From contig JAQVHD010000001.1 in NCBI GenBank assembly GCA_028696375.1, positions 1-50,961 of the forward strand: a DNA stretch of 50,961 nt. The letters run 5' to 3'. The notes under the pieces were generated by a model. It worked only from the letters and a program-made list of their open reading frames with translations, made no database searches and was not told the DNA's origin. How positions within the stretch are numbered: position 1 is the first letter of the stretch; each line of letters starts with the position of its first letter. The position numbers and the translations under genes were made by a program. Of the stretch, positions 4,441 through 26,812 are shown piece after piece. This DNA comes from Minisyncoccota bacterium. GTDB lineage: Bacteria > Patescibacteriota > Minisyncoccia > UBA6257 > JAAZHW01.

Positions 4441-5118
4441 TTATAAATTGTATTTTTCTCGATAAAAACGAATGAGTTCTTCAACTAACGGAATACAGGT
4501 TGGATCACCTAAGCCAACTTTGGTTTTTTCTTGAACTTCTTCTAAGGTTCTAGCACCATCCAGTACTGCTTTTTCAATGTCTTTTTCTGTAATTTTCAAA
4601 ACTTTATCAATAACGCGACTGCCTTCGGGTTCAATTTTATCATATTGTCCGGTGCGGCGATAATAATCATTAATAGCGTCGCGGAGGGCCTTGTCGCCTA
4701 AAACAGAACAGTGATATTTAATATCAGGCAACCCGCCTAATTCCTTAATAATATCATTGGGCGTAATTTTGCGAGCTTTTTCCAGAGTCATTCCTCCATT
4801 CCGCAAAATCATCTCTGATAAAACCGAAGTGGAAGCAATGGCGGAAGCGCAGCCAAAAGTGCGCCAGCGGGCATCTTTGATTTTTTCTGTTTTGGGATCA
4901 ACCAAAATCCAGAATTTCATAACGTCGCCGCAAACTGGGCTGCCAATCATTCCCACGCCATTGTACTGAAATTTTTCTTCTTCGCCAGCTTTCATAAAAT
5001 TGCGCGGATGCAAAAAATGATCTTTAACAGTTTCGCTATAAACCCACGGATTTCCTTTAGTTAAAACATCAGCCTCTTTCTTTTTCTTGTTTGTTTTTTG
5101 AGTTGAAGTCTTTTTCAT
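4441..5118 (-). CDS. NifU/IscU-like Fe-S cluster scaffold protein
   Basis: 225 aa. IscU-type N-domain motifs are present (GSPVCGDVM, FGCASAIASTS, KYHCSVLG). A C-terminal BFD-like segment follows. The gene is translationally coupled to the desulfurase. Confidence 0.85.
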   Translation of the reverse strand: MKKTSTQKTNKKKKEADVLTKGNPWVYSETVKDHFLHPRNFMKAGEEEKFQYNGVGMIGSPVCGDVMKFWILVDPKTEKIKDARWRTFGCASAIASTSVLSEMILRNGGMTLEKARKITPNDIIKELGGLPDIKYHCSVLGDKALRDAINDYYRRTGQYDKIEPEGSRVIDKVLKITEKDIEKAVLDGARTLEEVQEKTKVGLGDPTCIPLVEELIRFYREKYNL

Positions 5119-18222: not shown

Positions 18223-18295
18223 GGGCCTGTAGCTTAGCTGGTAGAGCGCCTCGATGGCATCGAGGAGGTCAGGGGTTCGAGTCCCCTCAGGTCCA
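18223..18295 (+). tRNA. tRNA-Ala (anticodon GGC)
   Basis: Hand-folded 73-nt cloverleaf: acceptor GGGCCTG/CAGGTCC with the G3:U70 Ala identity pair, anticodon loop ATGGCAT, T-loop TTCGAGT. CCA is not encoded. Confidence 0.9.
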
Positions 18296-18475
18296 CATTA
18301 GACGATTTCTAAAAATTCGCCGCCGCAATTTTTCATATTTCGCTTTGCGAAATGCGCCGCTAAGGTGTGTTACCCCTGCCCCTCCCACCCATACGCGGGC
18401 AACGATAAGGGACTCCCGTTAATATATTGCATAAAATTTATGACCATGATACTATAAGTACATCAAAGTTATTAA

Positions 18476-19813
18476 ATGATAACAAATGTTATGAATGCTA
18501 ACAAACCGTATTTATCCACAAATGAAATAGCAAAGATGTTTAATGTTAAGGCTATTACTATCCATCGTTGGGGAAAACGAGGGCTTTTGAAATCTTATCG
18601 TCCTAATCCAAGGGGTAAAAAATTTTTTGATAGAGAAGAGGTTTTAAAATTGATTAAAAACGATTTTTCAATTTCAGATAGAATTACTCTTTTAGAAAAT
18701 TCTCAAAATTTGCAAATTGGGACCAAGGCTAAAAAATTAAAAATCATTAAAGAAAAAACAGGGTTTATAATTCCTAAAACTTTAGTTATTAATACAGATA
18801 TTTTCAGCAAACTAATTGAGGATAATAAAATTTTAGATCCTTTTAATTATAATTGGTCAGAATTTCAAATTTCAAGTGAGTGTCAAAAAATGATTTTTGA
18901 AAAAATTAATCAAGAATTTGGTGATAAACCTTTGGTTATCAGGAGTTCGGCGACCTGTGAAGATTCACCTTTGTTAAGTTTTGCCGGACAATATTCGAGT
19001 TTTCTAAACATAAAAGGTGAAAAAAATATTATCAATGCTATTAAATTATGTTATCAATCGCTGTTTAGTGAAAATGCTAAGATTTACGCAAAAATAAATG
19101 GTATCAGATTGGAATATGAAAGCATGGCTATCGCTATTCAAGAATTAGCTCCAATAAAAACCGCTGGCGTAATATTTACTGCCGACCCCGTAAATCAAGA
19201 CTATAAAAAGATGATTCTAGAATATACTGAGGGTTTGGGCGACTCGGTAGTTAGCGGTCATCAAAAACCGATATCAAAAGTAATTAAAAAAGCCGAAGTT
19301 GGTAATTTGCAAAATGAATTTTTAAAGAAGTTATCAAAAACAGCGTTAGAACTGGAAAAAATATTTGGCAACCCACAAGATATCGAGTGGGGTTGGGATG
19401 GTAAAGAAATTTATATTTTCCAAAGTAGAAATATTACCACATTAGACAAACAGCCGAAAATTACAAATAATGACATTAGTAAAAGTAAAGTTATAGGAGT
19501 TGGTATTAACGCTTGCAGAGGCGTGTCAAATGGTGTTTTAAAGATTGTAAACAAGACCAAAGATTATGATAAAATAAAAAAGGGTGATGTTGTATTTGTA
19601 AATTGCAAAACCGACATCTCTTTGGTTTTAAAAATTCCATTTATTAACGCTTTGATAATTCATGGTGGGATTCTTTCCCATTTTGCCGTAATCGCAAGAG
19701 AATTTAATATTCCCTGTCTCACCGAACCGACGATAAATAATAAAAAGATAGAAATATATGAAAATAAAAAAATTATTGTCGACGCAATAAAAGGGAAAAT
19801 ATTAACTAATTAA
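18476..19813 (+). CDS. Excisionase/MerR-type HTH fused to a minimal PEP-utilising phosphotransferase (PPDK_N ATP-grasp domain plus swivel phosphohistidine domain)
   Basis: 445 aa. The N-terminus LSTNEIAKMFNVKAITIHRWGKRGLL is an excisionase-type HTH. VIRSSATCEDSPLLSFAGQYSSFLNI is the PEP synthase/rifampin-phosphotransferase ATP-grasp signature. The C-terminal GDVVFVNCKTD...HGGILSHFAVIAREFNIPCL is the mobile His domain. No third (substrate) domain is present. Confidence 0.75.
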   Translation: MITNVMNANKPYLSTNEIAKMFNVKAITIHRWGKRGLLKSYRPNPRGKKFFDREEVLKLIKNDFSISDRITLLENSQNLQIGTKAKKLKIIKEKTGFIIPKTLVINTDIFSKLIEDNKILDPFNYNWSEFQISSECQKMIFEKINQEFGDKPLVIRSSATCEDSPLLSFAGQYSSFLNIKGEKNIINAIKLCYQSLFSENAKIYAKINGIRLEYESMAIAIQELAPIKTAGVIFTADPVNQDYKKMILEYTEGLGDSVVSGHQKPISKVIKKAEVGNLQNEFLKKLSKTALELEKIFGNPQDIEWGWDGKEIYIFQSRNITTLDKQPKITNNDISKSKVIGVGINACRGVSNGVLKIVNKTKDYDKIKKGDVVFVNCKTDISLVLKIPFINALIIHGGILSHFAVIAREFNIPCLTEPTINNKKIEIYENKKIIVDAIKGKILTN

Positions 19814-19817
19814 AAAT

Positions 19818-20618
19818 ATGGAACTACAACTTTTTATTTATAAAAATATAGCCCTTCATTTTTATTATTCTAAGGATAGCGTCGAGGGCGAAGTGATAAA
19901 TAACAAAAATATTTTTGTCTATTTCCCCGGATTACCTCAAATGATCGATGAGGATTTTTTTGTTAATAAAGTTGATAAAAACACGGCTTTTTTTAGCGTT
20001 TATTATATGGGAAGCTGGTTAAGTGGTGGTAGTTTCACTTATAAAAATTGTCGAAAAACAGTGGAATTAGCTGTTGAGTTTATAAAAAATAAACAAGGAA
20101 TAAAAACTTTCGATAACAAGCAAATAAAATGGGATTACAATAATTTATATGTAATGGGCTACAGTTTCTCCGGTAATCCTGTTGTATCCGCTAAAATAAC
20201 AAAAAATGATGTAAAAAGTGTCATTTTGTTTGCCCCATTACTTTTTTTGCACAAAAAAGAAGTTTTAGAATCAATGAAAGATAAAAAGGCTATAGATAAT
20301 TTTTATGGTTTTAACTCGTTCTATTTAGAATTTCTTAGACGAGGTTATAAATTTGCGTTTAGGGGAATAGAAAAGAAAAGTTGGGATAAATATTTTTCCG
20401 GAAAAGCATCAAAATCTATTGTTAAGATAAATAAAGATTATCCCGACATTATTATATTTCATGGAAAATCAGATGAAAAAATCAATTATGCAAGCTCATT
20501 ATTTTTTCAAAAAGAAAAGCGTCCTGAGACAAAAATTTTTCTTAAAGACGAGGCTGGGCATAATTTAGAAAAACTTTTTGATATAAATCAGATCAATAAA
20601 CTAATTTCATTATTATGA
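19818..20618 (+). CDS. Alpha/beta-fold hydrolase
   Basis: 266 aa with the nucleophile elbow GYSFSG, a late acid/His region (HGKSDEKI ... AGHNL), and only 4 nt after the previous stop. Confidence 0.7.
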   Translation: MELQLFIYKNIALHFYYSKDSVEGEVINNKNIFVYFPGLPQMIDEDFFVNKVDKNTAFFSVYYMGSWLSGGSFTYKNCRKTVELAVEFIKNKQGIKTFDNKQIKWDYNNLYVMGYSFSGNPVVSAKITKNDVKSVILFAPLLFLHKKEVLESMKDKKAIDNFYGFNSFYLEFLRRGYKFAFRGIEKKSWDKYFSGKASKSIVKINKDYPDIIIFHGKSDEKINYASSLFFQKEKRPETKIFLKDEAGHNLEKLFDINQINKLISLL

Positions 20619-21361
20619 AAAAGCGGATAGTTTTTATAACTGATTGTACCGATGTGGCATATAACGAGCTAAGGGGAGTGATTTTAGATAATATTAAAAA
20701 TGATGAAATAATCATTGAACCGGTTGCTCCGGTTGTTCCGTTTTCAATTATCAACGGGAATTTCGTACTTCGTTTATTGGCCGACGCTTATCCTGAAGGT
20801 ACTGTTTTTTCAGTAATCCTAAATCCATCTAAAGAAAGGCCAGCTCGATTAATCGGAAAAACCAAGAAAAAAGGCATTTATTTTATAGGAGCAAATACTG
20901 GCGTTTTTACTTGGCTTTTTAGAGATTTTGGTATAGAGGAATTATATGAATTAAACGATCCTGGATTTTTCCCATTTGGTGGAAAATATGTTCACGCTCC
21001 AGCAGTAGCGCAGATAGCAATGGGTAGGCAGTTAAAAGAGATGGGACATCCATTTGACGTCGAAAAAGTTGCTAAAATTAATCCTTCTGAAGGCACAATT
21101 ATCCATATTGATAATTTTGGATTGATGAAATTTATTGGTGAATTAACTGGATTAAATGAAGGCGATAAATTAAAAGTTAATGTTAACGGAAAAACATTAA
21201 AGGCGATTTATGCCAAGAGAATGATGAGTCAAGAAACCGGAGAGTGGGTGATTTATCCCGGAAGCTCTTTCGGTTTACCGGAATTTGGCAAAGTGCGAGA
21301 AAATGGGGCAAAAGAGTTAAATGTACAGATTGGCGATATAATTACTTTCAAAAAGATTTAA
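20615..21361 (+). CDS. Divergent DUF62 / SAM hydroxide adenosyltransferase-family protein (fluorinase/chlorinase superfamily)
   Basis: 248 aa with an ATGA start/stop overlap with the hydrolase gene. The N-terminus IVFITDCTDVAYNELRGVI parallels the family TDFG..D.YVG..KGVI. YPEGTVFSVILNPSKERPARLI parallels FP.GT.F..VVDPGVG..R. A C-terminal beta-barrel-like domain follows. The canonical DPGVG is replaced by NPSKE. Confidence 0.55.
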   Translation: MKKRIVFITDCTDVAYNELRGVILDNIKNDEIIIEPVAPVVPFSIINGNFVLRLLADAYPEGTVFSVILNPSKERPARLIGKTKKKGIYFIGANTGVFTWLFRDFGIEELYELNDPGFFPFGGKYVHAPAVAQIAMGRQLKEMGHPFDVEKVAKINPSEGTIIHIDNFGLMKFIGELTGLNEGDKLKVNVNGKTLKAIYAKRMMSQETGEWVIYPGSSFGLPEFGKVRENGAKELNVQIGDIITFKKI

Positions 21362-21380
21362 GCTGTATTTGAAAAAGAAA

Positions 21381-21410
21381 AGCCCCTAAAGATTTTCATC
21401 TAGAGGGGCT
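21381..21410 (-). terminator. Hairpin between convergent operons
   Basis: agcccct...aggggct stem. On the minus strand it is followed by TTTCTTTTTC. It sits 4 nt beyond the stop of the 190-aa gene. Confidence 0.4.
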
Positions 21411-21413
21411 GTG

Positions 21414-21986
21414 TTATGTTGTGTTAACGAAATATACATCGTGGGGAGGCAACAGTTTGCGGGCAGTCAAATAGAAGAACTCTGATCTGATGCCTACAAG
21501 CAGTCCTGTCAATCGGAACTCGCTAAGAGCGATTTCGAGCACATGGATGTGCCAAAGGAATTCGAGGATCTCGTTAAGAGTTAAGTTGTCTGAAATGGTT
21601 TTCTTGCTTTGTGGCAAGAGTTTCCAAAATTCAGATACGGTAACTTTAGTTGCATGGGATAGATACGCCCCCAAAGTAACGTCTTTCACAAAATCCGACA
21701 CAAGTCGGACTTCATGGAAGCCAAGATCCGGCAACAGAGCGATGAATCGATCGGAAATGTTTTGCTGTTCTCTGTATGTTCGCGACAATGCGACCATGGG
21801 CCAAACATCATCAACTAATGCGCAGAGAAAGACATTTTCCGACCCTGCCCTTTTTCGTGCTTCCTCTGCCGCTTTTGGATAGATGGACAAGTAATCTTTT
21901 GGGAGGGTTCTTGCCCAGACGCTGAAGCCGAGTCGCAAGACATTAGGATGTGTGTGCGGCGATTCGCAAATACTATATGCAATCAT
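21414..21986 (-). CDS. Hypothetical 190-aa protein, translationally coupled to the TyrRS-like gene
   Basis: I moved the start to the ATG at 21986. It is preceded by AGGAGGTGG, which overlaps the TAG stop of the upstream gene (10-nt gap). There are no TM helices or signal peptide and no motif I recognise. G+C is high, like its partner. Confidence 0.65.
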   Translation of the reverse strand: MIAYSICESPHTHPNVLRLGFSVWARTLPKDYLSIYPKAAEEARKRAGSENVFLCALVDDVWPMVALSRTYREQQNISDRFIALLPDLGFHEVRLVSDFVKDVTLGAYLSHATKVTVSEFWKLLPQSKKTISDNLTLNEILEFLWHIHVLEIALSEFRLTGLLVGIRSEFFYLTARKLLPPHDVYFVNTT

Positions 21987-21996
21987 CGTCCACCTC

Positions 21997-23247
21997 CTAA
22001 GCCGTAACGAACCGGAAGAAACGACGCTTGCCAACTCGCACAACGCCGCGCACTTGGCCAACGACGATTTCAGGAGAGAGTATAACCTCTCCGTTTTCAT
22101 TCATGGAGCGCACGCCTTGTTGTTCAAACAGTCGGCGGATTTCGCTTTTGCTTTTGAACTGACCGCTTTTCACCAGAGCATCCAAGATTGTGGTGTTCGT
22201 GTCTTCAGTCAATTCAATGCAATCCTCGTGGCAGATGTTCTTATGAGAGAATTTCCTCTCAAAAAATTCGCGTTCTCGCAGACCATCTTCAATGCGTCGC
22301 GTTTCAGTGGCAACAATGAGAGTGGCAAGTTGCTTTTTAGCTTCCATCGGATTCTCTCTGATGAATGCGTCAAGTTCCTTCAACTCTCGCTGCTGAACAT
22401 CGGCGAAGCATCGGAAGTACTGGCCGATCAGCCGATCGGGAATGGACATAATCTTTCCGAATTTGTCCTCGTGAGTCGCGTTGACGGCAATATAATTGCC
22501 GTAACTCTTACTCATTTTCTTTCCGTCGCCACTCGTTCCCTCCAAGATGGGCGTCATCAGAACCACTTCTTCGTCCATACCAGATTGACGCATAATTTTA
22601 CGGCACTGCTGAAAATTCAGCAATTGATCAATGCCGCCGATCTCAACATGAGTTCCGAGATGAACCGAATCTATGCCCATCAAGACTCCATAACAAACTT
22701 CCGCAAGCGACACCGCTTGTCCATTGCGCATTCTTGCTCTGAAATCCTCGCGCTGCATAGCTTCCGACAGATTGATCTGCTGGAAGATAGTGAAGATTTC
22801 TTGCAAGGTCATCGGATTCAACCATTCGGCGTTGTAGTGAATGTGGAGCATACGCAGATCGATGTACTTCCCGATCTGGCTGGTGTATGTTTCCATATTC
22901 TTCACGATTTGTTCCGGACTCAACGGAACTCTGCCAGTATCCCTTGCAGTGGGATCGCCGATCCGAGCGGTGAAATCTCCGATGATGAAGTCGATGTGAT
23001 GACCGGCTTTTGCAAACTGACGCAAAAGCATGATTGGCACCACATGGCCGATGTGAATTTCCGACGCTGTTGGATCAATTCCGAATTTTACCTTCAGCGT
23101 TGGATGTTCAGACATCCTTTGTCGCAACCGATCGATCGTGATGACCTCTTGACATTTCGGCAACAGGAAGCCGACAAGTTCGTCGACTTCCATTCCGACC
23201 CACGATTCCGAATCACGGGTTAGGAATTGCTGATCAAACCTTTTCAT
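21997..23247 (-). CDS. Second, type-2 (Thermus/TyrZ-like) tyrosyl-tRNA synthetase-like protein with altered pocket motif
   Basis: 416 aa with HIGH (HIGHVVP), GGIDQ, KMSKS and a C-terminal S4-like domain (KSKSEIRRLFEQQGVR). The canonical QAYD is replaced by MGID. It has a strong SD (GAAGGAGGT), its own promoter and higher G+C. Confidence 0.85.
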   Translation of the reverse strand: MKRFDQQFLTRDSESWVGMEVDELVGFLLPKCQEVITIDRLRQRMSEHPTLKVKFGIDPTASEIHIGHVVPIMLLRQFAKAGHHIDFIIGDFTARIGDPTARDTGRVPLSPEQIVKNMETYTSQIGKYIDLRMLHIHYNAEWLNPMTLQEIFTIFQQINLSEAMQREDFRARMRNGQAVSLAEVCYGVLMGIDSVHLGTHVEIGGIDQLLNFQQCRKIMRQSGMDEEVVLMTPILEGTSGDGKKMSKSYGNYIAVNATHEDKFGKIMSIPDRLIGQYFRCFADVQQRELKELDAFIRENPMEAKKQLATLIVATETRRIEDGLREREFFERKFSHKNICHEDCIELTEDTNTTILDALVKSGQFKSKSEIRRLFEQQGVRSMNENGEVILSPEIVVGQVRGVVRVGKRRFFRFVTA

Positions 23248-23282
23248 GACTTACCTCCTTCTGTTGTTAAGGTGCTGTTTCT

Positions 23283-23340
23283 AATAGGAAACCACTTCCT
23301 ATTAATATGCCAGCTTACATCTTTTTATTTATTTTGTCAA
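23283..23340 (-). promoter_or_regulatory. Promoter and 5'-UTR hairpin of the TyrRS-like cassette
   Basis: On the minus strand: TTGACA (23335-23340), 17 nt spacer, TAAGCT (23312-23317). Then the hairpin aataggaa-gtggt-ttcctatt (23283-23303), upstream of the SD. Confidence 0.4.
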
Positions 23341-23475
23341 TTGCCAATTGGTATGAGTGTTGCACATAACTTGGATACATTTACTTCTAGCCCCAAATAT
23401 GCAGTTGCAGTAATAGGTATAACAAGAAAGCTTCCCAAAGTAGGAGTTTTTCGTATCGATCATTCACATAAGAGG

Positions 23476-24382
23476 GTGGGTGAACGTCCCCTTGAATTAA
23501 ACAATATATCACTCAGTAAAGAAGAATCGAAAAGATATGAACGCCAAATAATTCTTTTTGGTAGTAAAGGGCAGTTAAATCTTAAAGATTTCGAGGTAGC
23601 GATAATTGGAGTAGGTGGTTTGTGGTGTCCTGTGGTACTGTGTTTAGTTGCGGCAGGGGTTGGGAAGATAAAAATGATAGATTCTGGCAGGGTTGCAATA
23701 TCTGATTTAAATCAACAAATTTTATATCAAACAGCCGATATTGGTCAAAATAAAGTAAAGGTATGTAAAAAAATTAATGGAATTAAATTCTAATATTATT
23801 GTTGATGCCATTTAAAAACACTTAACCGAGAAAAACATCAGCATGTTGAATAACGCTGATTTAATTATTGATTGTACAGATAATGTTCAAACAAAAAATT
23901 CTTTTTTTGTAGTATAGCGATAATTCCTCTTATACGTGGTGCGGTAGCCTACTACACAGCGGGCAACAAATTTCAATTTTGTGGCCTCCAGCACTAGAAT
24001 CGCAGATGTTTATAAGTAAAAAGAAACGAAAGAGCCAATTACTATCCTAGAGGTGGTGTCTGGTGTTATTGGTTCTGTTCAGGCATTTCAAGCTTTAAAA
24101 TTACTTACTGGGGAAAGGAGATTAAATCGAGATTTAATTCTTTTTCAAAATGGAAAATTTGAAGAATATAATTTTCAAAATCCTTCGAAACCTCAGGATT
24201 TTAGTGACGGCACAACAATTATAATAAACAGAAATTTGAAATTGAGCGCCTTATTAAAACAAAGAAAAATCGATCTTTCAGAAGTCCTTGTGATTAAAAA
24301 TAGTAAAATTATTACAGATCAAAGTATAATGCTAAATAAAGGAGCAAAAATAGAAATTATCTCAAAGATTTTGGGAGACTGA
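23476..24382 (+). pseudogene. Decayed ThiF/MoeB-type E1-like adenylyltransferase fused to a ThiS/MoaD-like beta-grasp tail
   Basis: Segment 1 reads SKRYERQIILFG...IIGVGGLWCPVVLCLVAAGVGKIKMIDSGRVAISDLNQQ. Later segments in other frames read ADLIIDCTDNVQTKN, IPLIRGAVAYYTAGNKFQF and GVIGSVQAFQALKLLTGE. They are interrupted by at least two in-frame stops and at least one frameshift. The tail ...GAKIEIISKILGD lacks the terminal GG. Confidence 0.7.
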
Positions 24383-25549: not shown

Positions 25550-26812
25550 TTATTGCCAGTAAATTAGATAATAATTTTTTTTGCCTCGTCTCAAAACCAT
25601 TATATTTTCAACTAAACAATTTTGAGGCGTTAATCTTAAGTTAACATCAGCTACCGTTTGTCCATTTAAAGAAATGGCATGATTTTCAATGTCTTCTCGG
25701 GCTTGGCGTTTTGAGGGGCAAATTTGAGCATTCACCAGCAAGTCAACAATACTGATCTCTTTTTGTTGAGAAATAGTGTAAGTTGGAACATCATAGAGAC
25801 CTTCTTTGATTTCTTCAGCGCTGAGATTGGCAAGTTGATTAGAAAACAGCGCTTCGGAAATTTTTTCTGCTCTTTTTAAGGCAGTTTCGCCATGTACTAA
25901 TTTGGTTAATTCTTGGGCTAAGGTTTTTGGAGCTTGGCGTTTTTCCGGATTGTTTTTAACTTGTTTTTCCAATTCTTGAATTTCTTCGTTGGAAAGAAAA
26001 GAAAAATATTTTAGAAACCGAATTACGTCATCATCGCTTACATTAATAAAATATTGATAAAATTGATAAGCAGAAGTTTTTTGGGGATTAAGCCAAACTG
26101 TTCCTCCTTCGGTTTTTCCAAATTTAGTACCATCTGATTTTAATAAAAGAGGCAATGTCAGACCATAAACTGTTTTGCCTTTTGTTTTGGTAATTAAATC
26201 AATACCTGAAGTAATGTTGCCCCACTGATCACTACCGCCAATTTGCAATTCGCAATTAAATTTTTCATTAAGCCAAAAATAATCATAGGCTTGAAGCAGC
26301 ATATAGCTGAATTCAGTAAAGGAAATACCCGATTCCAAGCGGCTTTTAACAGATTCTTTAGCCAGCATGTATCCCAAACTGAAATGTTTTCCAATATTTC
26401 TGATAAAAGGTAATAATTTTAATTCTTTGAGCCATTGGCTATTTTGCAGAATAGTTGCTTTTTGAGTGTGAATTTCCTCATCAAAGATTTTTTCCAGTTG
26501 TTTTTTTAATTCAATAGCCCATTGCTCCACTTGCTCTTCAGGGTTTAGCTGGCGTTCGGATTTTTTTCCGCTGGGATCACCGATTAAACTAGTGCCATCG
26601 CCTAAAAGAGGGATGATTTGATGATTAAATTGCGCAAAGCGTTTAAGAGTAATCATTGGTAAAAGATGACCAATGTGGAGGCTATCAGCGGTCACATCAA
26701 ATCCGCCATATACAACAATCGGCTTCTCAAGCCGTTTTTTTAATTCCTTTGCGTCAGTTGATTGATTAATCAATCCCCGCCAAAAAAGTTCATCCCAGAT
26801 ATTTTGTTTCAT
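25550..26812 (-). CDS. tyrS: Tyrosyl-tRNA synthetase, canonical type 1
   Basis: 420 aa with HIGHLLP, LLQAYDYFWL, GGSDQWGN, KFGKTEGG and a C-terminal S4 domain. It is AT-rich and lacks an SD, like the host background. Confidence 0.95.
   Translation of the reverse strand: MKQNIWDELFWRGLINQSTDAKELKKRLEKPIVVYGGFDVTADSLHIGHLLPMITLKRFAQFNHQIIPLLGDGTSLIGDPSGKKSERQLNPEEQVEQWAIELKKQLEKIFDEEIHTQKATILQNSQWLKELKLLPFIRNIGKHFSLGYMLAKESVKSRLESGISFTEFSYMLLQAYDYFWLNEKFNCELQIGGSDQWGNITSGIDLITKTKGKTVYGLTLPLLLKSDGTKFGKTEGGTVWLNPQKTSAYQFYQYFINVSDDDVIRFLKYFSFLSNEEIQELEKQVKNNPEKRQAPKTLAQELTKLVHGETALKRAEKISEALFSNQLANLSAEEIKEGLYDVPTYTISQQKEISIVDLLVNAQICPSKRQAREDIENHAISLNGQTVADVNLRLTPQNCLVENIMVLRRGKKNYYLIYWQ

What the first reader, a model, noticed from the sequence alone, without database searches (positions are those of the whole stretch)
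21414..23247. Foreign-looking two-gene cassette: a second TyrRS-like enzyme with a rewritten tyrosine-pocket motif, coupled to an unknown 190-aa protein
The window carries two TyrRS genes only about 2.3 kb apart.

The host copy (25550-26812) is AT-rich and has no SD. It has canonical HIGHLLP / LLQAYD / GGSDQ / KFGKT motifs.

The second copy (21997-23247) differs in several ways:
- It belongs to the type-2 (Thermus/TyrZ-like) lineage, with HIGHVVP, GGIDQ, KMSKS and an S4 tail.
- It has visibly higher G+C. My hand counts of two 60-nt samples gave about 43-47%, against about 23-28% in sampled AT-rich neighbours.
- It has a GAAGGAGGT SD and its own TTGACA-17-TAAGCT promoter plus a 5'-UTR hairpin.
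- Where both the host copy and Thermus-type enzymes read QAYD, it reads MGID. In QAYD, Gln contacts the substrate amino group and Asp the phenolic OH, per the classical B. stearothermophilus work. Here the Asp is kept but Gln and Tyr are lost.

Its TAG stop is embedded in AGGAGGTGG, and 10 nt later a 190-aa ORF begins. That ORF has no motif I can place.

Extra aaRS copies in accessory DNA are classically one of two things. They can be resistance or self-immunity alleles against aaRS-targeting natural products (mupirocin IleRS2, indolmycin TrpRS, B. subtilis TyrZ). Or they can be recruited biosynthetic or tRNA-dependent enzymes. A pocket-altered TyrRS obligately co-expressed with an unknown partner, next to a SAM-cleaving-family operon, is the best candidate here for an undescribed functional module.
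Basis: partly seen in the sequence, partly recalled or inferred. Interest (0 to 1): 0.75.

Follow-up and report, generated by a model that had tools for sequence, protein, structure and literature searches.

The report
Spare TyrRS with degenerate partner cassette
An ultra-small (CPR) bacterium carries a second, complete tyrosyl-tRNA synthetase that is always co-expressed with a previously undescribed 190-residue protein, itself a stripped-down synthetase-like domain, inside a portable five-gene cassette whose purpose is unknown.

Summary
Window 21997-23247(-) encodes a complete TyrRS. Ten nt after its stop, 21414-21986(-) encodes a conserved 190-aa protein (p190). Both genes are 46-48% G+C, against about 28-37% in the neighbours.

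1. The "rewritten" pocket (YGVLMGID instead of YP..Q[AG]YD) is correctly registered, but it is a trait of a whole TyrRS clade. Members of that clade also sit alone in housekeeping-looking neighbourhoods. Only two positions separate the cassette enzymes from those.
2. p190 is not motif-less. Its confident model is a degenerate TyrRS/TrpRS-type Rossmann domain without HIGH or KMSKS. Distant relatives sit beside TyrRS genes of other types and are sometimes fused to a nucleotidyltransferase.
3. The unit is not two genes. It is a discrete 5.0-kb block (18316-23341) that also holds a PEP-synthase-like kinase, a hydrolase and a SAM_HAT-like protein that has lost its catalytic triad. The block recurs in more than 30 assemblies with unrelated flanks. 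In close relatives it is bracketed by inverted repeats.

Best guess, with low confidence: a mobile cassette built around a tyrosyl-adenylate-like TyrRS inhibitor, either making it or resisting it, with the spare TyrRS as the protected target. The pairing appears to be undescribed. Function needs experiments.

The parts
18316..18335 (+). Left edge of the conserved 5.0-kb block; 20-nt remnant of the inverted-repeat arm that brackets the cassette in relatives
   Evidence: blastn homology to many loci stops at 18316. TTCGCCGCCGCAATTTTTCA matches the repeat core with 1 mismatch and is the only copy in the window. In L020, L024 and L031 two inverted copies flank the block.
18476..19813 (+). 445-aa HTH (MerR/HTH_17) + PPDK_N ATP-grasp + PEP-utilizer swivel-His domain protein. 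PEP-synthase / rifampicin-phosphotransferase-like kinase with no recognisable substrate domain.
   Evidence: Pfam. NCBIfam partial matches to PEP synthase and RIF phosphotransferase, all far below cut-off. PDB hits 8a8e and 5fbs. Present in most cassette copies.
19818..20618 (+). 266-aa alpha/beta-hydrolase-like protein (weak BD-FAE match). Replaced by a Peptidase_S51 (PepE-like) gene in other lineages.
   Evidence: Pfam E = 0.0019, below cut-off. No PDB sequence match. hyd266 and S51 are mutually exclusive across loci.
20615..21361 (+). 248-aa SAM_HAT (DUF62)-fold protein lacking the Asp-Arg-His triad
   Evidence: PF01887 at 55.8 bits. Alignment to PH0463, 2zbu and MJ1651 shows D68->N, R75->A/E and H127->G, invariant in six genomes. 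(R)-SAM hydrolase equivalogs score 33 bits against cut-offs of 350-470.
21383..21406 (-). Terminator-like hairpin directly after the p190 stop, between the convergent operons
21414..21986 (-). p190: 190-aa degenerate class-Ic (TyrRS/TrpRS-like) Rossmann-domain protein, translationally coupled to the TyrRS gene
   Evidence: Family of about 190-aa proteins: 41 clusters, 82 representatives. AF2 pLDDT 90.4, pTM 0.87. The Foldseek top 50 are all TyrRS/TrpRS catalytic domains, E = 4e-7, TMq 0.57-0.72. No Pfam, NCBIfam or PADLOC match.
21997..23247 (-). Auxiliary TyrRS of the 'YG[VI]LM[GA]xD' type-2 subclade, complete with HIGH, KMSKS, helical and C-terminal tRNA-binding domains
23253..23261 (-). Shine-Dalgarno GAAGGAGGT of the TyrRS gene
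   Evidence: conserved in relatives
23282..23304 (-). Conserved leader hairpin or palindrome (10-bp stem)
   Evidence: Alignment of 10 relatives with 2 pairs kept through double changes
23312..23341 (-). Promoter-like TTGACA-17-TAAGCT; right edge of the conserved block at 23341
   Evidence: Sequence. Conserved in relatives. Homology ends at 23341. Not called by the consensus scan.
25550..26812 (-). Host type-1 housekeeping TyrRS (context, not part of the cassette)
   Evidence: tyrS 409 bits; PF00579 + SYY_C-terminal + S4

Best explanation
**What is shown**
- The segment is a real, translationally coupled two-gene operon (TyrRS, then p190).
- It forms one half of a discrete, portable five-gene cassette of CPR bacteria (window 18316-23341).
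- The other half is a convergent operon: a PEP-synthase-like kinase, a serine-type hydrolase and a triad-less SAM_HAT-fold protein.
- The TyrRS is a complete synthetase from a natural clade whose pocket reads Met/Ile where classical enzymes read Gln/Tyr.
- p190 is a degenerate TyrRS-like catalytic-domain relic. Its relatives are always encoded beside a TyrRS.

**What is inferred**
- The TyrRS is very probably Tyr- and tRNATyr-specific.
- p190 can no longer activate amino acids, because it lacks HIGH and KMSKS.
- The cassette deals with a TyrRS-directed, tyrosyl-adenylate-like adenosine compound.
- The spare TyrRS is the protected or replacement target. It keeps translation going alongside the host type-1 enzyme.
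- p190 keeps the ancestral Tyr/adenosine- or tRNA-acceptor-binding scaffold. It presents or sequesters the compound.
- The SAM_HAT-like protein (5'-adenosyl chemistry without water activation), the kinase and the hydrolase either build or inactivate the compound.
- Whether the host is the producer (self-immunity) or only a resistant bystander cannot be decided here.
For: **The TyrRS is an intact enzyme**
- HIGH, KMSKS and GGxDQ are present. The Tyr169 and Asp176 equivalents are kept, as is the PD motif that aligns with Tth Asp259.
- It scores above the tyrS equivalog cut-off.
- The full-length model matches Tth TyrRS-tRNA complexes.

**It is an extra copy**
- The host type-1 TyrRS lies 2.3 kb away.

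**The pocket variant is clade-wide**
- Stand-alone members sit in housekeeping contexts. Only 2 positions are specific to the cassette clade.

**p190 fold and linkage to TyrRS**
- Fold.
- The TyrRS-to-p190 gap is 1-14 nt in every lineage.
- TyrRS lies upstream of p190 in every locus that has DNA there.
- Distant p190-like genes lie beside other TyrRS genes: a divergent clade-mate in a Firmicute and an archaeal-type TyrRS. A fusion protein lies five genes from a canonical type-2 TyrRS.
- Linkage to several TyrRS types, extra in the window and foreign-type in L052, is what target replacement predicts.

**Nucleoside- and antibiotic-modifying-type partners**
- Triad-less SAM_HAT-like protein.
- RPH/PEP-synthase-like kinase.
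- Interchangeable hydrolases.
- NTase fusions of p190-like domains.
- NUDIX, ADK-like and ABC exporter genes nearby in L009.
- A NUDIX-EPSP-synthase fusion in the Firmicute.

**Mobility**
- Block edges are sharp and flanks unrelated.
- Inverted repeats of 48-205 nt at 96-99% bracket the block.
- One lineage assembles as a 5.64-kb cycle.
- The same four genes occur in another order in L015.

**Precedent**
- aaRS copies linked to biosynthetic gene clusters act as immunity genes (tiarins preprint).
- Extra tyrS genes are common on plasmids.
Against: - No inhibitor, precursor gene or scaffold-building enzyme is identified in the five-gene core, and the core has no exporter.
- The cassette TyrRS clade shows no diagnostic pocket change relative to stand-alone clade-mates. 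Any resistance would have to be intrinsic to the whole clade.
- It is not proven that stand-alone members are the sole TyrRS of their genomes.
- The p190 binding function is inferred from fold only. Its pocket residues do not match TyrRS.
- Loss of the triad in the SAM_HAT-like protein could equally mean a non-catalytic binder.
- PADLOC finds nothing.
- The persistent GC3 gap between the two operons is unexplained.
Confidence: 0.35

Rival explanations
1. tRNA-dependent biosynthesis. The dedicated TyrRS makes Tyr-tRNATyr (or Tyr-AMP). p190 acts like a cyclodipeptide synthase or SbzA-type aaRS-derived transferase and moves the tyrosyl group onto an adenosine-type acceptor supplied by the SAM_HAT-like enzyme. 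The product would be a tyrosyl-nucleoside, a puromycin-like logic.
For: - p190 has the class-Ic Rossmann fold without HIGH or KMSKS, as CDPSs do.
- G20-F21-S22 is invariant at the position of TyrRS 'GFD' in the close family.
- TyrRS binds tRNA across the dimer (my own knowledge of Tth TyrRS). A TyrRS:p190 heterodimer could therefore deliver the acceptor end to p190.
- Nucleoside enzymes lie nearby.
- aa-tRNA has been proposed as the donor for puromycin-type coupling (PMC11641026).
Against: - p190 shows no sequence similarity to AlbC (hhalign probability 0.1%) and no CDPS Pfam match.
- No CDPS appears among the 50 best structural matches.
- Ser22 is not conserved in distant family members.
- A biosynthetic enzyme could use the host's own Tyr-tRNA, so this model does not explain the obligate extra TyrRS.
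Confidence: 0.2
2. p190 is a non-catalytic subunit or regulator of an alternative, stress- or condition-specific TyrRS. Comparable cases are HisZ, the Leishmania pseudo-dimeric TyrRS and the TrpRS-A/ORF1 pairs. The neighbouring operon would be functionally separate housekeeping or salvage (SAM/adenosine).
For: - Translational coupling implies stoichiometric co-expression.
- p190 keeps the helical region that forms the TyrRS dimer interface, including a shared [ST]-L-x-E-[VI] start (alignment by eye).
- There are published analogies of class-Ic aaRS copies with aaRS-like partners in CPR/DPANN, and of the pseudo-dimeric TyrRS (PMC5370408).
- The conserved leader hairpin and possible anti-SD helix suggest regulated expression.
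Against: - The SAM_HAT-like gene and a hydrolase accompany TyrRS-p190 in every CPR lineage sampled, even when reordered onto one strand. This argues for one functional unit.
- Stand-alone clade-mates work without p190.
- The cassette is mobile and accessory.
Confidence: 0.2
3. One reading: the Gln->Met / Tyr->Ile pocket gives the enzyme a new amino-acid specificity, for example a Trp-like or hydrophobic Tyr analogue. Y-G-V-L-M-G-I-D resembles the bacterial TrpRS motif Y-P-V-L-M-A-A-D (from my own memory).
For: - The register is confirmed.
- The motif is strictly conserved in 120 homologues.
- Further hydrophobic changes lie nearby: GG[ST]DQ -> GGIDQ and YP -> YG.
Against: - The same motif occurs in enzymes that sit alone among core genes such as HisRS, TruB, DnaB and L21. 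These are most simply the housekeeping TyrRS there.
- The cassette clade differs from them at only 2 non-motif positions.
- TrpRS models score far below tyrS: 29 against 253 bits.
- The anticodon-binding and C-terminal domains are those of TyrRS.
Confidence: 0.1
4. Assembly chimera, or a recent isolated insertion of a foreign two-gene fragment.
For: There is a sharp G+C step at both ends of the pair, and codon usage is foreign, e.g. TTC 74% against 17%.
Against: - Identical gene order and junctions occur in more than 30 independent assemblies.
- The G+C offset recurs in six genomes of different base composition.
- Divergence of the pair and of the SAM_HAT-like gene runs in parallel.
Confidence: 0.02

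Closest known systems
Bacterial type-2 TyrRS (T. thermophilus TyrRS, PDB 1H3E; B. subtilis TyrZ-type)
   Same: - Same family and full architecture, with HIGH, KMSKS and GGxDQ.
- The helical and C-terminal tRNA-binding domains are present.
- tyrS equivalog score above cut-off; 30% identity and TMq about 0.8 to Tth TyrRS-tRNA complexes.
   Different: - The pocket helix reads Y-G-[VI]-L-M-[GA]-x-D instead of Y-P-x-x-Q-[AG]-Y-D, and GG[STN]DQ becomes GG[IVL]DQ.
- These changes define a whole subclade that includes apparently housekeeping enzymes.
Accessory or immunity aaRS copies (mupirocin IleRS2, indolmycin-resistant TrpRS, AgnB2 LeuRS, tiarin-BGC aaRSs)
   Same: A second synthetase of the same specificity beside a housekeeping copy, on mobile or accessory DNA, next to small-molecule enzymes (tiarins preprint).
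   Different: - No inhibitor or biosynthetic core is identified.
- No resistance-type substitutions relative to clade-mates.
- There is an obligate degenerate-aaRS partner, which none of those systems has.
[quoted passage not shown] 2017, PMC5370408)
   Same: An extra class-Ic synthetase that always travels and co-evolves with an unknown ORF showing class-I-aaRS-like features, in the same kinds of organisms. Function unknown.
   Different: - That system involves a different synthetase (archaeal-type TrpRS) and a different partner.
- ORF1 was reported to lack a Rossmann fold and to keep HIGH/KMSKS-like motifs. p190 is the opposite.
- No SAM_HAT/hydrolase/kinase operon was reported there.
- A sequence relationship between ORF1 and p190 was not tested.
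Cyclodipeptide synthases (AlbC, Rv2275, YvmC)
   Same: Small proteins with a TyrRS/TrpRS-like Rossmann fold that have lost HIGH and KMSKS.
   Different: - No sequence or profile similarity.
- None among the top 50 structural matches.
- p190 is shorter (190 against about 230-290 aa).
- The candidate Ser is not conserved across the superfamily.
SAM hydroxide adenosyltransferase / (R)-SAM hydrolase (DUF62; PH0463, MJ1651), fluorinase, chlorinase
   Same: The neighbour gene has the same two-domain fold family and keeps the N-terminal TD motif.
   Different: The Asp68-Arg75-His127 triad is replaced by Asn / Ala or Glu / Gly in all cassette copies. Equivalog scores are 10-fold below cut-off.

Membership tests
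Tyrosyl-tRNA synthetase (class Ic; NCBIfam TIGR00234 tyrS) | HIGH and KMSKS signature motifs | tested here: met
   EIHIGHVVP and KKMSKS are present and conserved in 120 homologues.
Tyrosyl-tRNA synthetase (class Ic; NCBIfam TIGR00234 tyrS) | Whole-protein score above the curated equivalog cut-off | tested here: met
   253.5 bits against a cut-off of 113.8, covering residues 36-414. trpS scores only 29 bits.
Tyrosyl-tRNA synthetase (class Ic; NCBIfam TIGR00234 tyrS) | Full architecture, including the helical anticodon-binding and C-terminal S4-like domains | tested here: met
   AF2 model pLDDT 85.7. TMq 0.79-0.81 over about 435 columns to Tth TyrRS-tRNATyr complexes. The PD motif aligned with Tth Asp259 is invariant. 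The role of that residue is from my own knowledge.
Tyrosyl-tRNA synthetase (class Ic; NCBIfam TIGR00234 tyrS) | Classical tyrosine-pocket residues (B. stearothermophilus Tyr169, Gln173, Asp176; Asp78) | tested here: inconclusive
   The Tyr169, Asp176 and Asp78 equivalents are kept. Gln173 -> Met and Tyr175 -> Ile. The same variant occurs in stand-alone, housekeeping-context enzymes.
Tyrosyl-tRNA synthetase (class Ic; NCBIfam TIGR00234 tyrS) | Charges tRNATyr with L-tyrosine | not testable with these tools
   Needs an aminoacylation assay.
Resistance / self-immunity aaRS copy | Second copy of the same specificity beside a housekeeping enzyme | tested here: met
   The type-1 TyrRS at 25550-26812 scores 409 bits.
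Resistance / self-immunity aaRS copy | Located on mobile or accessory DNA or within a biosynthetic cluster | tested here: met
   A discrete 5.0-kb block with unrelated flanks and inverted repeats in relatives. Partial biosynthesis-like neighbourhoods occur in L009 and L008.
Resistance / self-immunity aaRS copy | Substitutions that distinguish it from sensitive relatives, or demonstrated insensitivity | tested here: inconclusive
   Only F155 and C343 separate the cassette clade from stand-alone clade-mates. It differs strongly from the host type-1 enzyme. No inhibitor is known.
Cyclodipeptide synthase (for the 190-aa protein) | Class-Ic Rossmann fold lacking HIGH and KMSKS | tested here: met
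Cyclodipeptide synthase (for the 190-aa protein) | Sequence or profile similarity to CDPS (Pfam CDPS; AlbC) | tested here: not met
   No Pfam hit at E <= 10. hhalign against AlbC gives probability 0.1%. The AlbC sequence was verified against 3OQV.
Cyclodipeptide synthase (for the 190-aa protein) | Conserved catalytic Ser in the G-x-S loop | tested here: not met
   G20-F21-S22 is invariant in close members. Distant members have A, T, N or V at that position.
SAM hydroxide adenosyltransferase / (R)-SAM hydrolase (for the neighbour 20615-21361) | SAM_HAT N- and C-terminal domains | tested here: met
   PF01887 at 55.8 bits (cut-off 26.3). PF20257 at 24.2 bits, just under its cut-off of 25.5.
SAM hydroxide adenosyltransferase / (R)-SAM hydrolase (for the neighbour 20615-21361) | Asp-Arg-His triad (PH0463 D68/R75/H127) | tested here: not met
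   N / A(E) / G in all six cassette copies. The role of the triad is from my own knowledge of the PH0463 work.
TrpRS-A/ORF1-type pair (Mukai 2017) | Extra class-Ic aaRS invariably adjacent to, and co-evolving with, an uncharacterised aaRS-like ORF | tested here: met
   This is a resemblance of logic only.
TrpRS-A/ORF1-type pair (Mukai 2017) | Homology of the partner to ORF1 | not tested
   The ORF1 sequences were not in hand.

The most novel reading that the evidence does not exclude
p190 founds a new family of TyrRS-derived proteins that work on the product of their partner TyrRS (Tyr-AMP or the 3' end of Tyr-tRNATyr). Together with a water-excluding SAM_HAT-fold enzyme, they make a 5'-tyrosyl-type adenosine conjugate. 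This would be a natural, phosphate-free tyrosyl-adenylate mimic produced by ultra-small CPR bacteria, with the spare TyrRS as self-immunity and the whole pathway packaged as a 5-kb mobile cassette.
Probability: 0.12. Interest if true: 0.85.

Novelty: new variant of a known kind. Interest (0 to 1): 0.62.

Why it matters
**Why the cassette stands out**
- CPR bacteria have minimal genomes. A conserved, portable five-gene block that duplicates an essential translation enzyme is therefore unlikely to be idle.

**What the analysis defines**
1. A natural TyrRS clade in which the textbook Gln173 is Met.
2. A new protein family that is a degenerate TyrRS-like domain, genomically tied to TyrRS genes of three different types.
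3. A SAM_HAT-fold subfamily without the water-activating triad.

**What it would mean**
- If the cassette makes or defeats a tyrosyl-adenylate mimic, it would be a new aaRS-inhibitor system and a new resistance determinant.
- If p190 is a subunit or a tRNA-dependent enzyme, it adds a new fate for aaRS paralogues.
- In either case the system is small enough to reconstitute in vitro.

Tried and rejected
- **Antisense ORF.** The 423-aa ORF codon-aligned antisense to the TyrRS (21952-23223+) is not conserved. Homologues carry 3-14 stops in that frame. It is a by-product of avoiding TTA and TCA.
- **T-box or riboswitch upstream of the TyrRS.** There is no Rfam hit in the window other than tRNAs. 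The Firmicute homologue has only an 82-nt intergenic region.
- **Dedicated tRNA gene in the cassette.** None is consistently present.
- **Anti-phage defence.** PADLOC gives no hits except the HTH.
- **Tiarin-type RiPP cluster.** The ThiF and nitroreductase genes near the cassette in L004 and L009 are Rv1355c/Acg-type, with a PaaK-like ligase. The 55-aa ORF in L009 has no convincing core peptide. The link was not established.
- **Puromycin Pur6.** It is an unrelated 84-kDa protein.
- **p190 against its own TyrRS by profile.** No sequence similarity.
- **Plasmid and phage collections.** No MGID-type TyrRS was found; all hits are below 40% identity.
- **Genome-contig scan for p190.** It returned only 4 loci because it depends on exact peptide patterns.
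- **Literature.** Searches for the pairing, and for the Tth pocket residues, found nothing specific. The Yaremchuk 2002 paper is not held.
- **Not possible here.** I could not list whole genomes to prove that stand-alone MGID enzymes are the only TyrRS. I could not co-fold TyrRS with p190.

Full report
**1. The observation**

- ORF listing and translation confirm both genes at the stated coordinates. The 416-aa gene lies at 21997-23247(-). A 190-aa ORF has its ATG at 21986, 10 nt after the TAG, inside AGGAGGTGG.
- The 416-aa protein is a TyrRS:
  - PF00579 at 1e-57.
  - NCBIfam tyrS at 253.5 bits, cut-off 113.8, with trpS at only 29 bits.
  - Its best solved relative is T. thermophilus TyrRS.
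- The host copy at 25550-26812(-) is a canonical type-1 TyrRS at 409 bits.
- G+C of the pair is 0.48 and 0.46, against 0.28-0.36 for neighbours. GC3 is 0.56 and 0.48 against 0.23-0.33.
- Both C- and G-ending codons are raised. TTC is 74% against 17%, and TTA is 3% against 39%.
- The alignment to three solved type-2 enzymes fixes the register. YGVLMGID lies opposite YP..Q[AG]YD.
- An AF2 model (pLDDT 85.7) superposes over its whole length on Tth TyrRS-tRNATyr complexes, with TMq 0.79-0.81. The C-terminal tRNA-binding domain is therefore present, although Pfam does not call it.
- A terminator-like hairpin follows the 190-aa ORF.
- The promoter-like TTGACA-17-TAAGCT and the leader hairpin are conserved in relatives. 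Two stem pairs are kept through double changes. The -10 box is weak, and the scan did not call the promoter.

**2. The pocket variant is a clade trait**

- All 120 best homologues, down to 53% identity, carry Y-[GAS]-x-[LM]-M-[GA]-x-D. The closest 78 read exactly YGVL-MGID.
- An NJ tree places the cassette-linked enzymes in one clade. Its sister is a Thermoactinomycetaceae pair. Both are nested among more basal MGID-type enzymes.
- Three of those basal enzymes were looked up. They sit alone, without p190 or a SAM_HAT gene. One is among HisRS, TruB, BipA and MscL. Another is among DnaB, RecR and L21. These are housekeeping-looking settings.
- Only two alignment positions (F155, C343) are diagnostic for the cassette clade, and neither is in the motif.
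- The residue aligned with the Tth anticodon-reading Asp259 is invariant.
- The simplest reading is a true TyrRS of an unusual but natural pocket type, not a re-specified enzyme.
- The Met at the Gln173 position mirrors the bacterial TrpRS motif YPVLMAAD. That comparison is from my own memory and was not tested.

**3. The 190-aa protein (p190)**

- It belongs to a compact family: 41 clusters at 90% identity and 82 representatives among 1.84 billion proteins.
- It has no Pfam, NCBIfam or PADLOC match.
- The AF2 model is confident (pLDDT 90.4, pTM 0.87).
- Its 50 best PDB matches are all TyrRS or TrpRS catalytic domains (E = 4e-7, TMq 0.57-0.72, about 14% identity).
- The chain runs beta1 to beta5 of the Rossmann fold, with a helical insert where TyrRS has CP1 and the dimer interface. 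It stops right after the last strand.
- There is no HIGH motif; "PKDY" sits at that position. There is no KMSKS.
- Profile comparison detects no similarity to its own TyrRS or to the cyclodipeptide synthase AlbC (the AlbC sequence was verified).
- Motifs conserved across the superfamily are W-A-[RS]-x-x-P-K, [VI]-D-D and L-P-x-x-K-[KR]. Ser22 of the close family is not conserved in distant members.

**4. Linkage of p190 to TyrRS**

- In every locus with DNA upstream of p190, the TyrRS gene precedes it with a 1-14 nt gap. This covers 29 metagenome loci, 4 genome loci and the looked-up contigs.
- Deeper relatives repeat the theme with other synthetases:

| Locus | p190 relative | Associated TyrRS |
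|---|---|---|
| L008 (Paenactinomyces) | 209-aa homologue, hhalign 97.6% | Divergent from the MGID TyrRS |
| L052 | 244-aa homologue, overlapped by an upstream PfkB/Pol-beta-like gene | Immediately followed by an archaeal-type TyrRS (PRK08560, 417 bits, YPSMQVAD) |
| L016 | p190-like-nucleotidyltransferase fusion | Five genes from a canonical type-2 TyrRS |

- A second fusion has the reverse domain order.
- p190-type proteins are therefore TyrRS partners regardless of pocket type. They are repeatedly tied to nucleotide-handling domains.

**5. The real unit is five genes**

- A convergent operon accompanies the pair throughout:
  - An HTH-PEP-synthase/RPH-like kinase (18476-19813).
  - A 266-aa alpha/beta-hydrolase-like protein (19818-20618).
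  - A SAM_HAT-fold protein (20615-21361).
- Across lineages the hydrolase is swapped for a Peptidase_S51, and the kinase is optional.
- In a Peribacteria contig, the hydrolase, the SAM_HAT-like gene, TyrRS and p190 all lie on one strand.
- Pairwise protein identities between genomes run in parallel: TyrRS 60-89%, p190 48-85%, SAM_HAT-like 61-83%. The genes have travelled together.
- blastn homology of the window to many loci ends sharply at 18316 and 23341. The flanks are unrelated.
- In close relatives the block is bracketed by inverted repeats: 205 nt at 96%, 95 nt at 99% and 48 nt at 98%.
- The window keeps only 20 nt of one arm, next to tRNA-Ala.
- One lineage assembles as a 5.64-kb cycle. 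It could also be a collapsed radC' direct repeat.
- The SAM_HAT-like protein has replaced the DUF62 Asp68/Arg75/His127 triad by Asn / Ala-or-Glu / Gly in all six copies compared. It scores 10-fold below the (R)-SAM hydrolase cut-offs.

**6. Interpretation**

*Shown:*
- An extra, complete TyrRS.
- An obligate degenerate TyrRS-like partner.
- A fixed association with a triad-less adenosyl-transferase-fold protein and a hydrolase, usually also with a PEP-synthase-like kinase.
- A discrete, portable block.

*Inferred:*
- A biosynthetic enzyme could draw on the host's Tyr-tRNA. The constant presence of a spare TyrRS, foreign in type at least in the window and L052, therefore points to a TyrRS-directed compound.
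- This is the logic established for mupirocin, indolmycin, agrocin 84 and the tiarins.
- The partner enzymes all fit chemistry on an adenosine- or tyrosyl-adenylate-like molecule.
- I put this "inhibitor cassette" reading, whether producer or resister, at about 0.35.

*Rivals:*
- tRNA-dependent tyrosyl transfer by p190: 0.2.
- p190 as a regulatory or structural subunit of an alternative TyrRS: 0.2.
- Altered amino-acid specificity: 0.1.
- Assembly artefact or isolated recent insertion: 0.02.

**7. Comparison with known systems, and novelty**

- The synthetase is a member of the TyrRS family, with a clade-wide pocket variant.
- The arrangement resembles accessory or immunity aaRS genes. It also resembles the TrpRS-A/ORF1 pairs described in CPR and DPANN (PMC5370408).
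- I found no description in the searched literature of the partner family, of its TyrRS-wide linkage, of the triad-less SAM_HAT subfamily or of the five-gene inverted-repeat-bounded block.
- I rate it a new variant of a known kind, with interest 0.62.

**8. Unexplained**

- The TyrRS-p190 operon keeps a GC3 0.2-0.3 higher than the convergent operon in six genomes of 29-48% G+C. This holds despite long co-inheritance.

Noticed in passing
window 21952-23223 (+): A 423-aa ORF lies exactly codon-aligned antisense to the TyrRS gene, because the gene has no TTA or TCA codons. The same frame carries 3-14 stops in homologues, so it is not a gene.
   Followed up: yes
window ~23401-24382 (+): A ThiF/MoeB-like gene directly upstream of the cassette is broken by several stops and frameshifts (pseudogene). 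Intact ThiF (Rv1355c-type), Acg-type nitroreductase, PaaK-like ligase and HisKA_7TM kinase genes lie next to the cassette in L004 and L009.
   Followed up: partly
window 18223-18335: tRNA-Ala(GGC) ends 20 nt before the left edge of the conserved block. The first 20 nt of the block are the remnant of an inverted-repeat arm that flanks the cassette on both sides in L020, L024 and L031 (48-205 nt, 96-99% complementary).
   Followed up: yes
L044 1-5767; L043; L014: - One cassette lineage assembles as a 5.64-kb cycle. There is a 123-nt terminal overlap, and two other contigs are rotations of it or run across the same junction.
- It includes a 146-aa RadC N-terminal fragment.
- L043 ends in a second copy of the radC' start. 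The structure is therefore either a true circle or tandem, or a collapsed direct repeat.
- L014 is binned as 'Gammaproteobacteria', which is probably a mis-binning.
   Followed up: partly
L005 6483-6713; L044 2591-2863; L038 ~4474-4743: In some lineages a conserved 76-90-aa ORF (…AKAGRWLAILRRDHP.EYRKL…) sits directly upstream of, or overlapping, the TyrRS start. It replaces the promoter and hairpin leader seen in the window lineage. It has no family match.
   Followed up: partly
window 21414-23247 versus 18476-21361, and the same genes in L001, L004, L005, L009, L011: The two convergent operons of one co-inherited cassette keep a stable GC3 difference of 0.2-0.3 in genomes of 29-48% G+C. Both C- and G-ending codons are raised in the TyrRS-p190 operon. 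No explanation was found.
   Followed up: partly
window 23248-23312 (-): Besides the conserved 10-bp leader hairpin, a second weak helix pairs CACCUU with the AAGGAGG Shine-Dalgarno sequence. It could be an anti-SD. Support is thin (10 close relatives).
   Followed up: partly
L017 5458-10424 (Croceifilum oryzae): The Firmicute MGID-type TyrRS lies just downstream of a 755-aa Piwi-domain (prokaryotic Argonaute) gene and next to a NUDIX gene. In Paenactinomyces (L008) the neighbour is a NUDIX-EPSP-synthase fusion.
   Followed up: no
plasmid collection: Extra tyrS genes of ordinary types are annotated on 60 plasmid or chromid records, including a 42-kb Legionella adelaidensis plasmid, B. thuringiensis and Clostridium estertheticum. 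Accessory TyrRS copies are therefore not rare in themselves.
   Followed up: no
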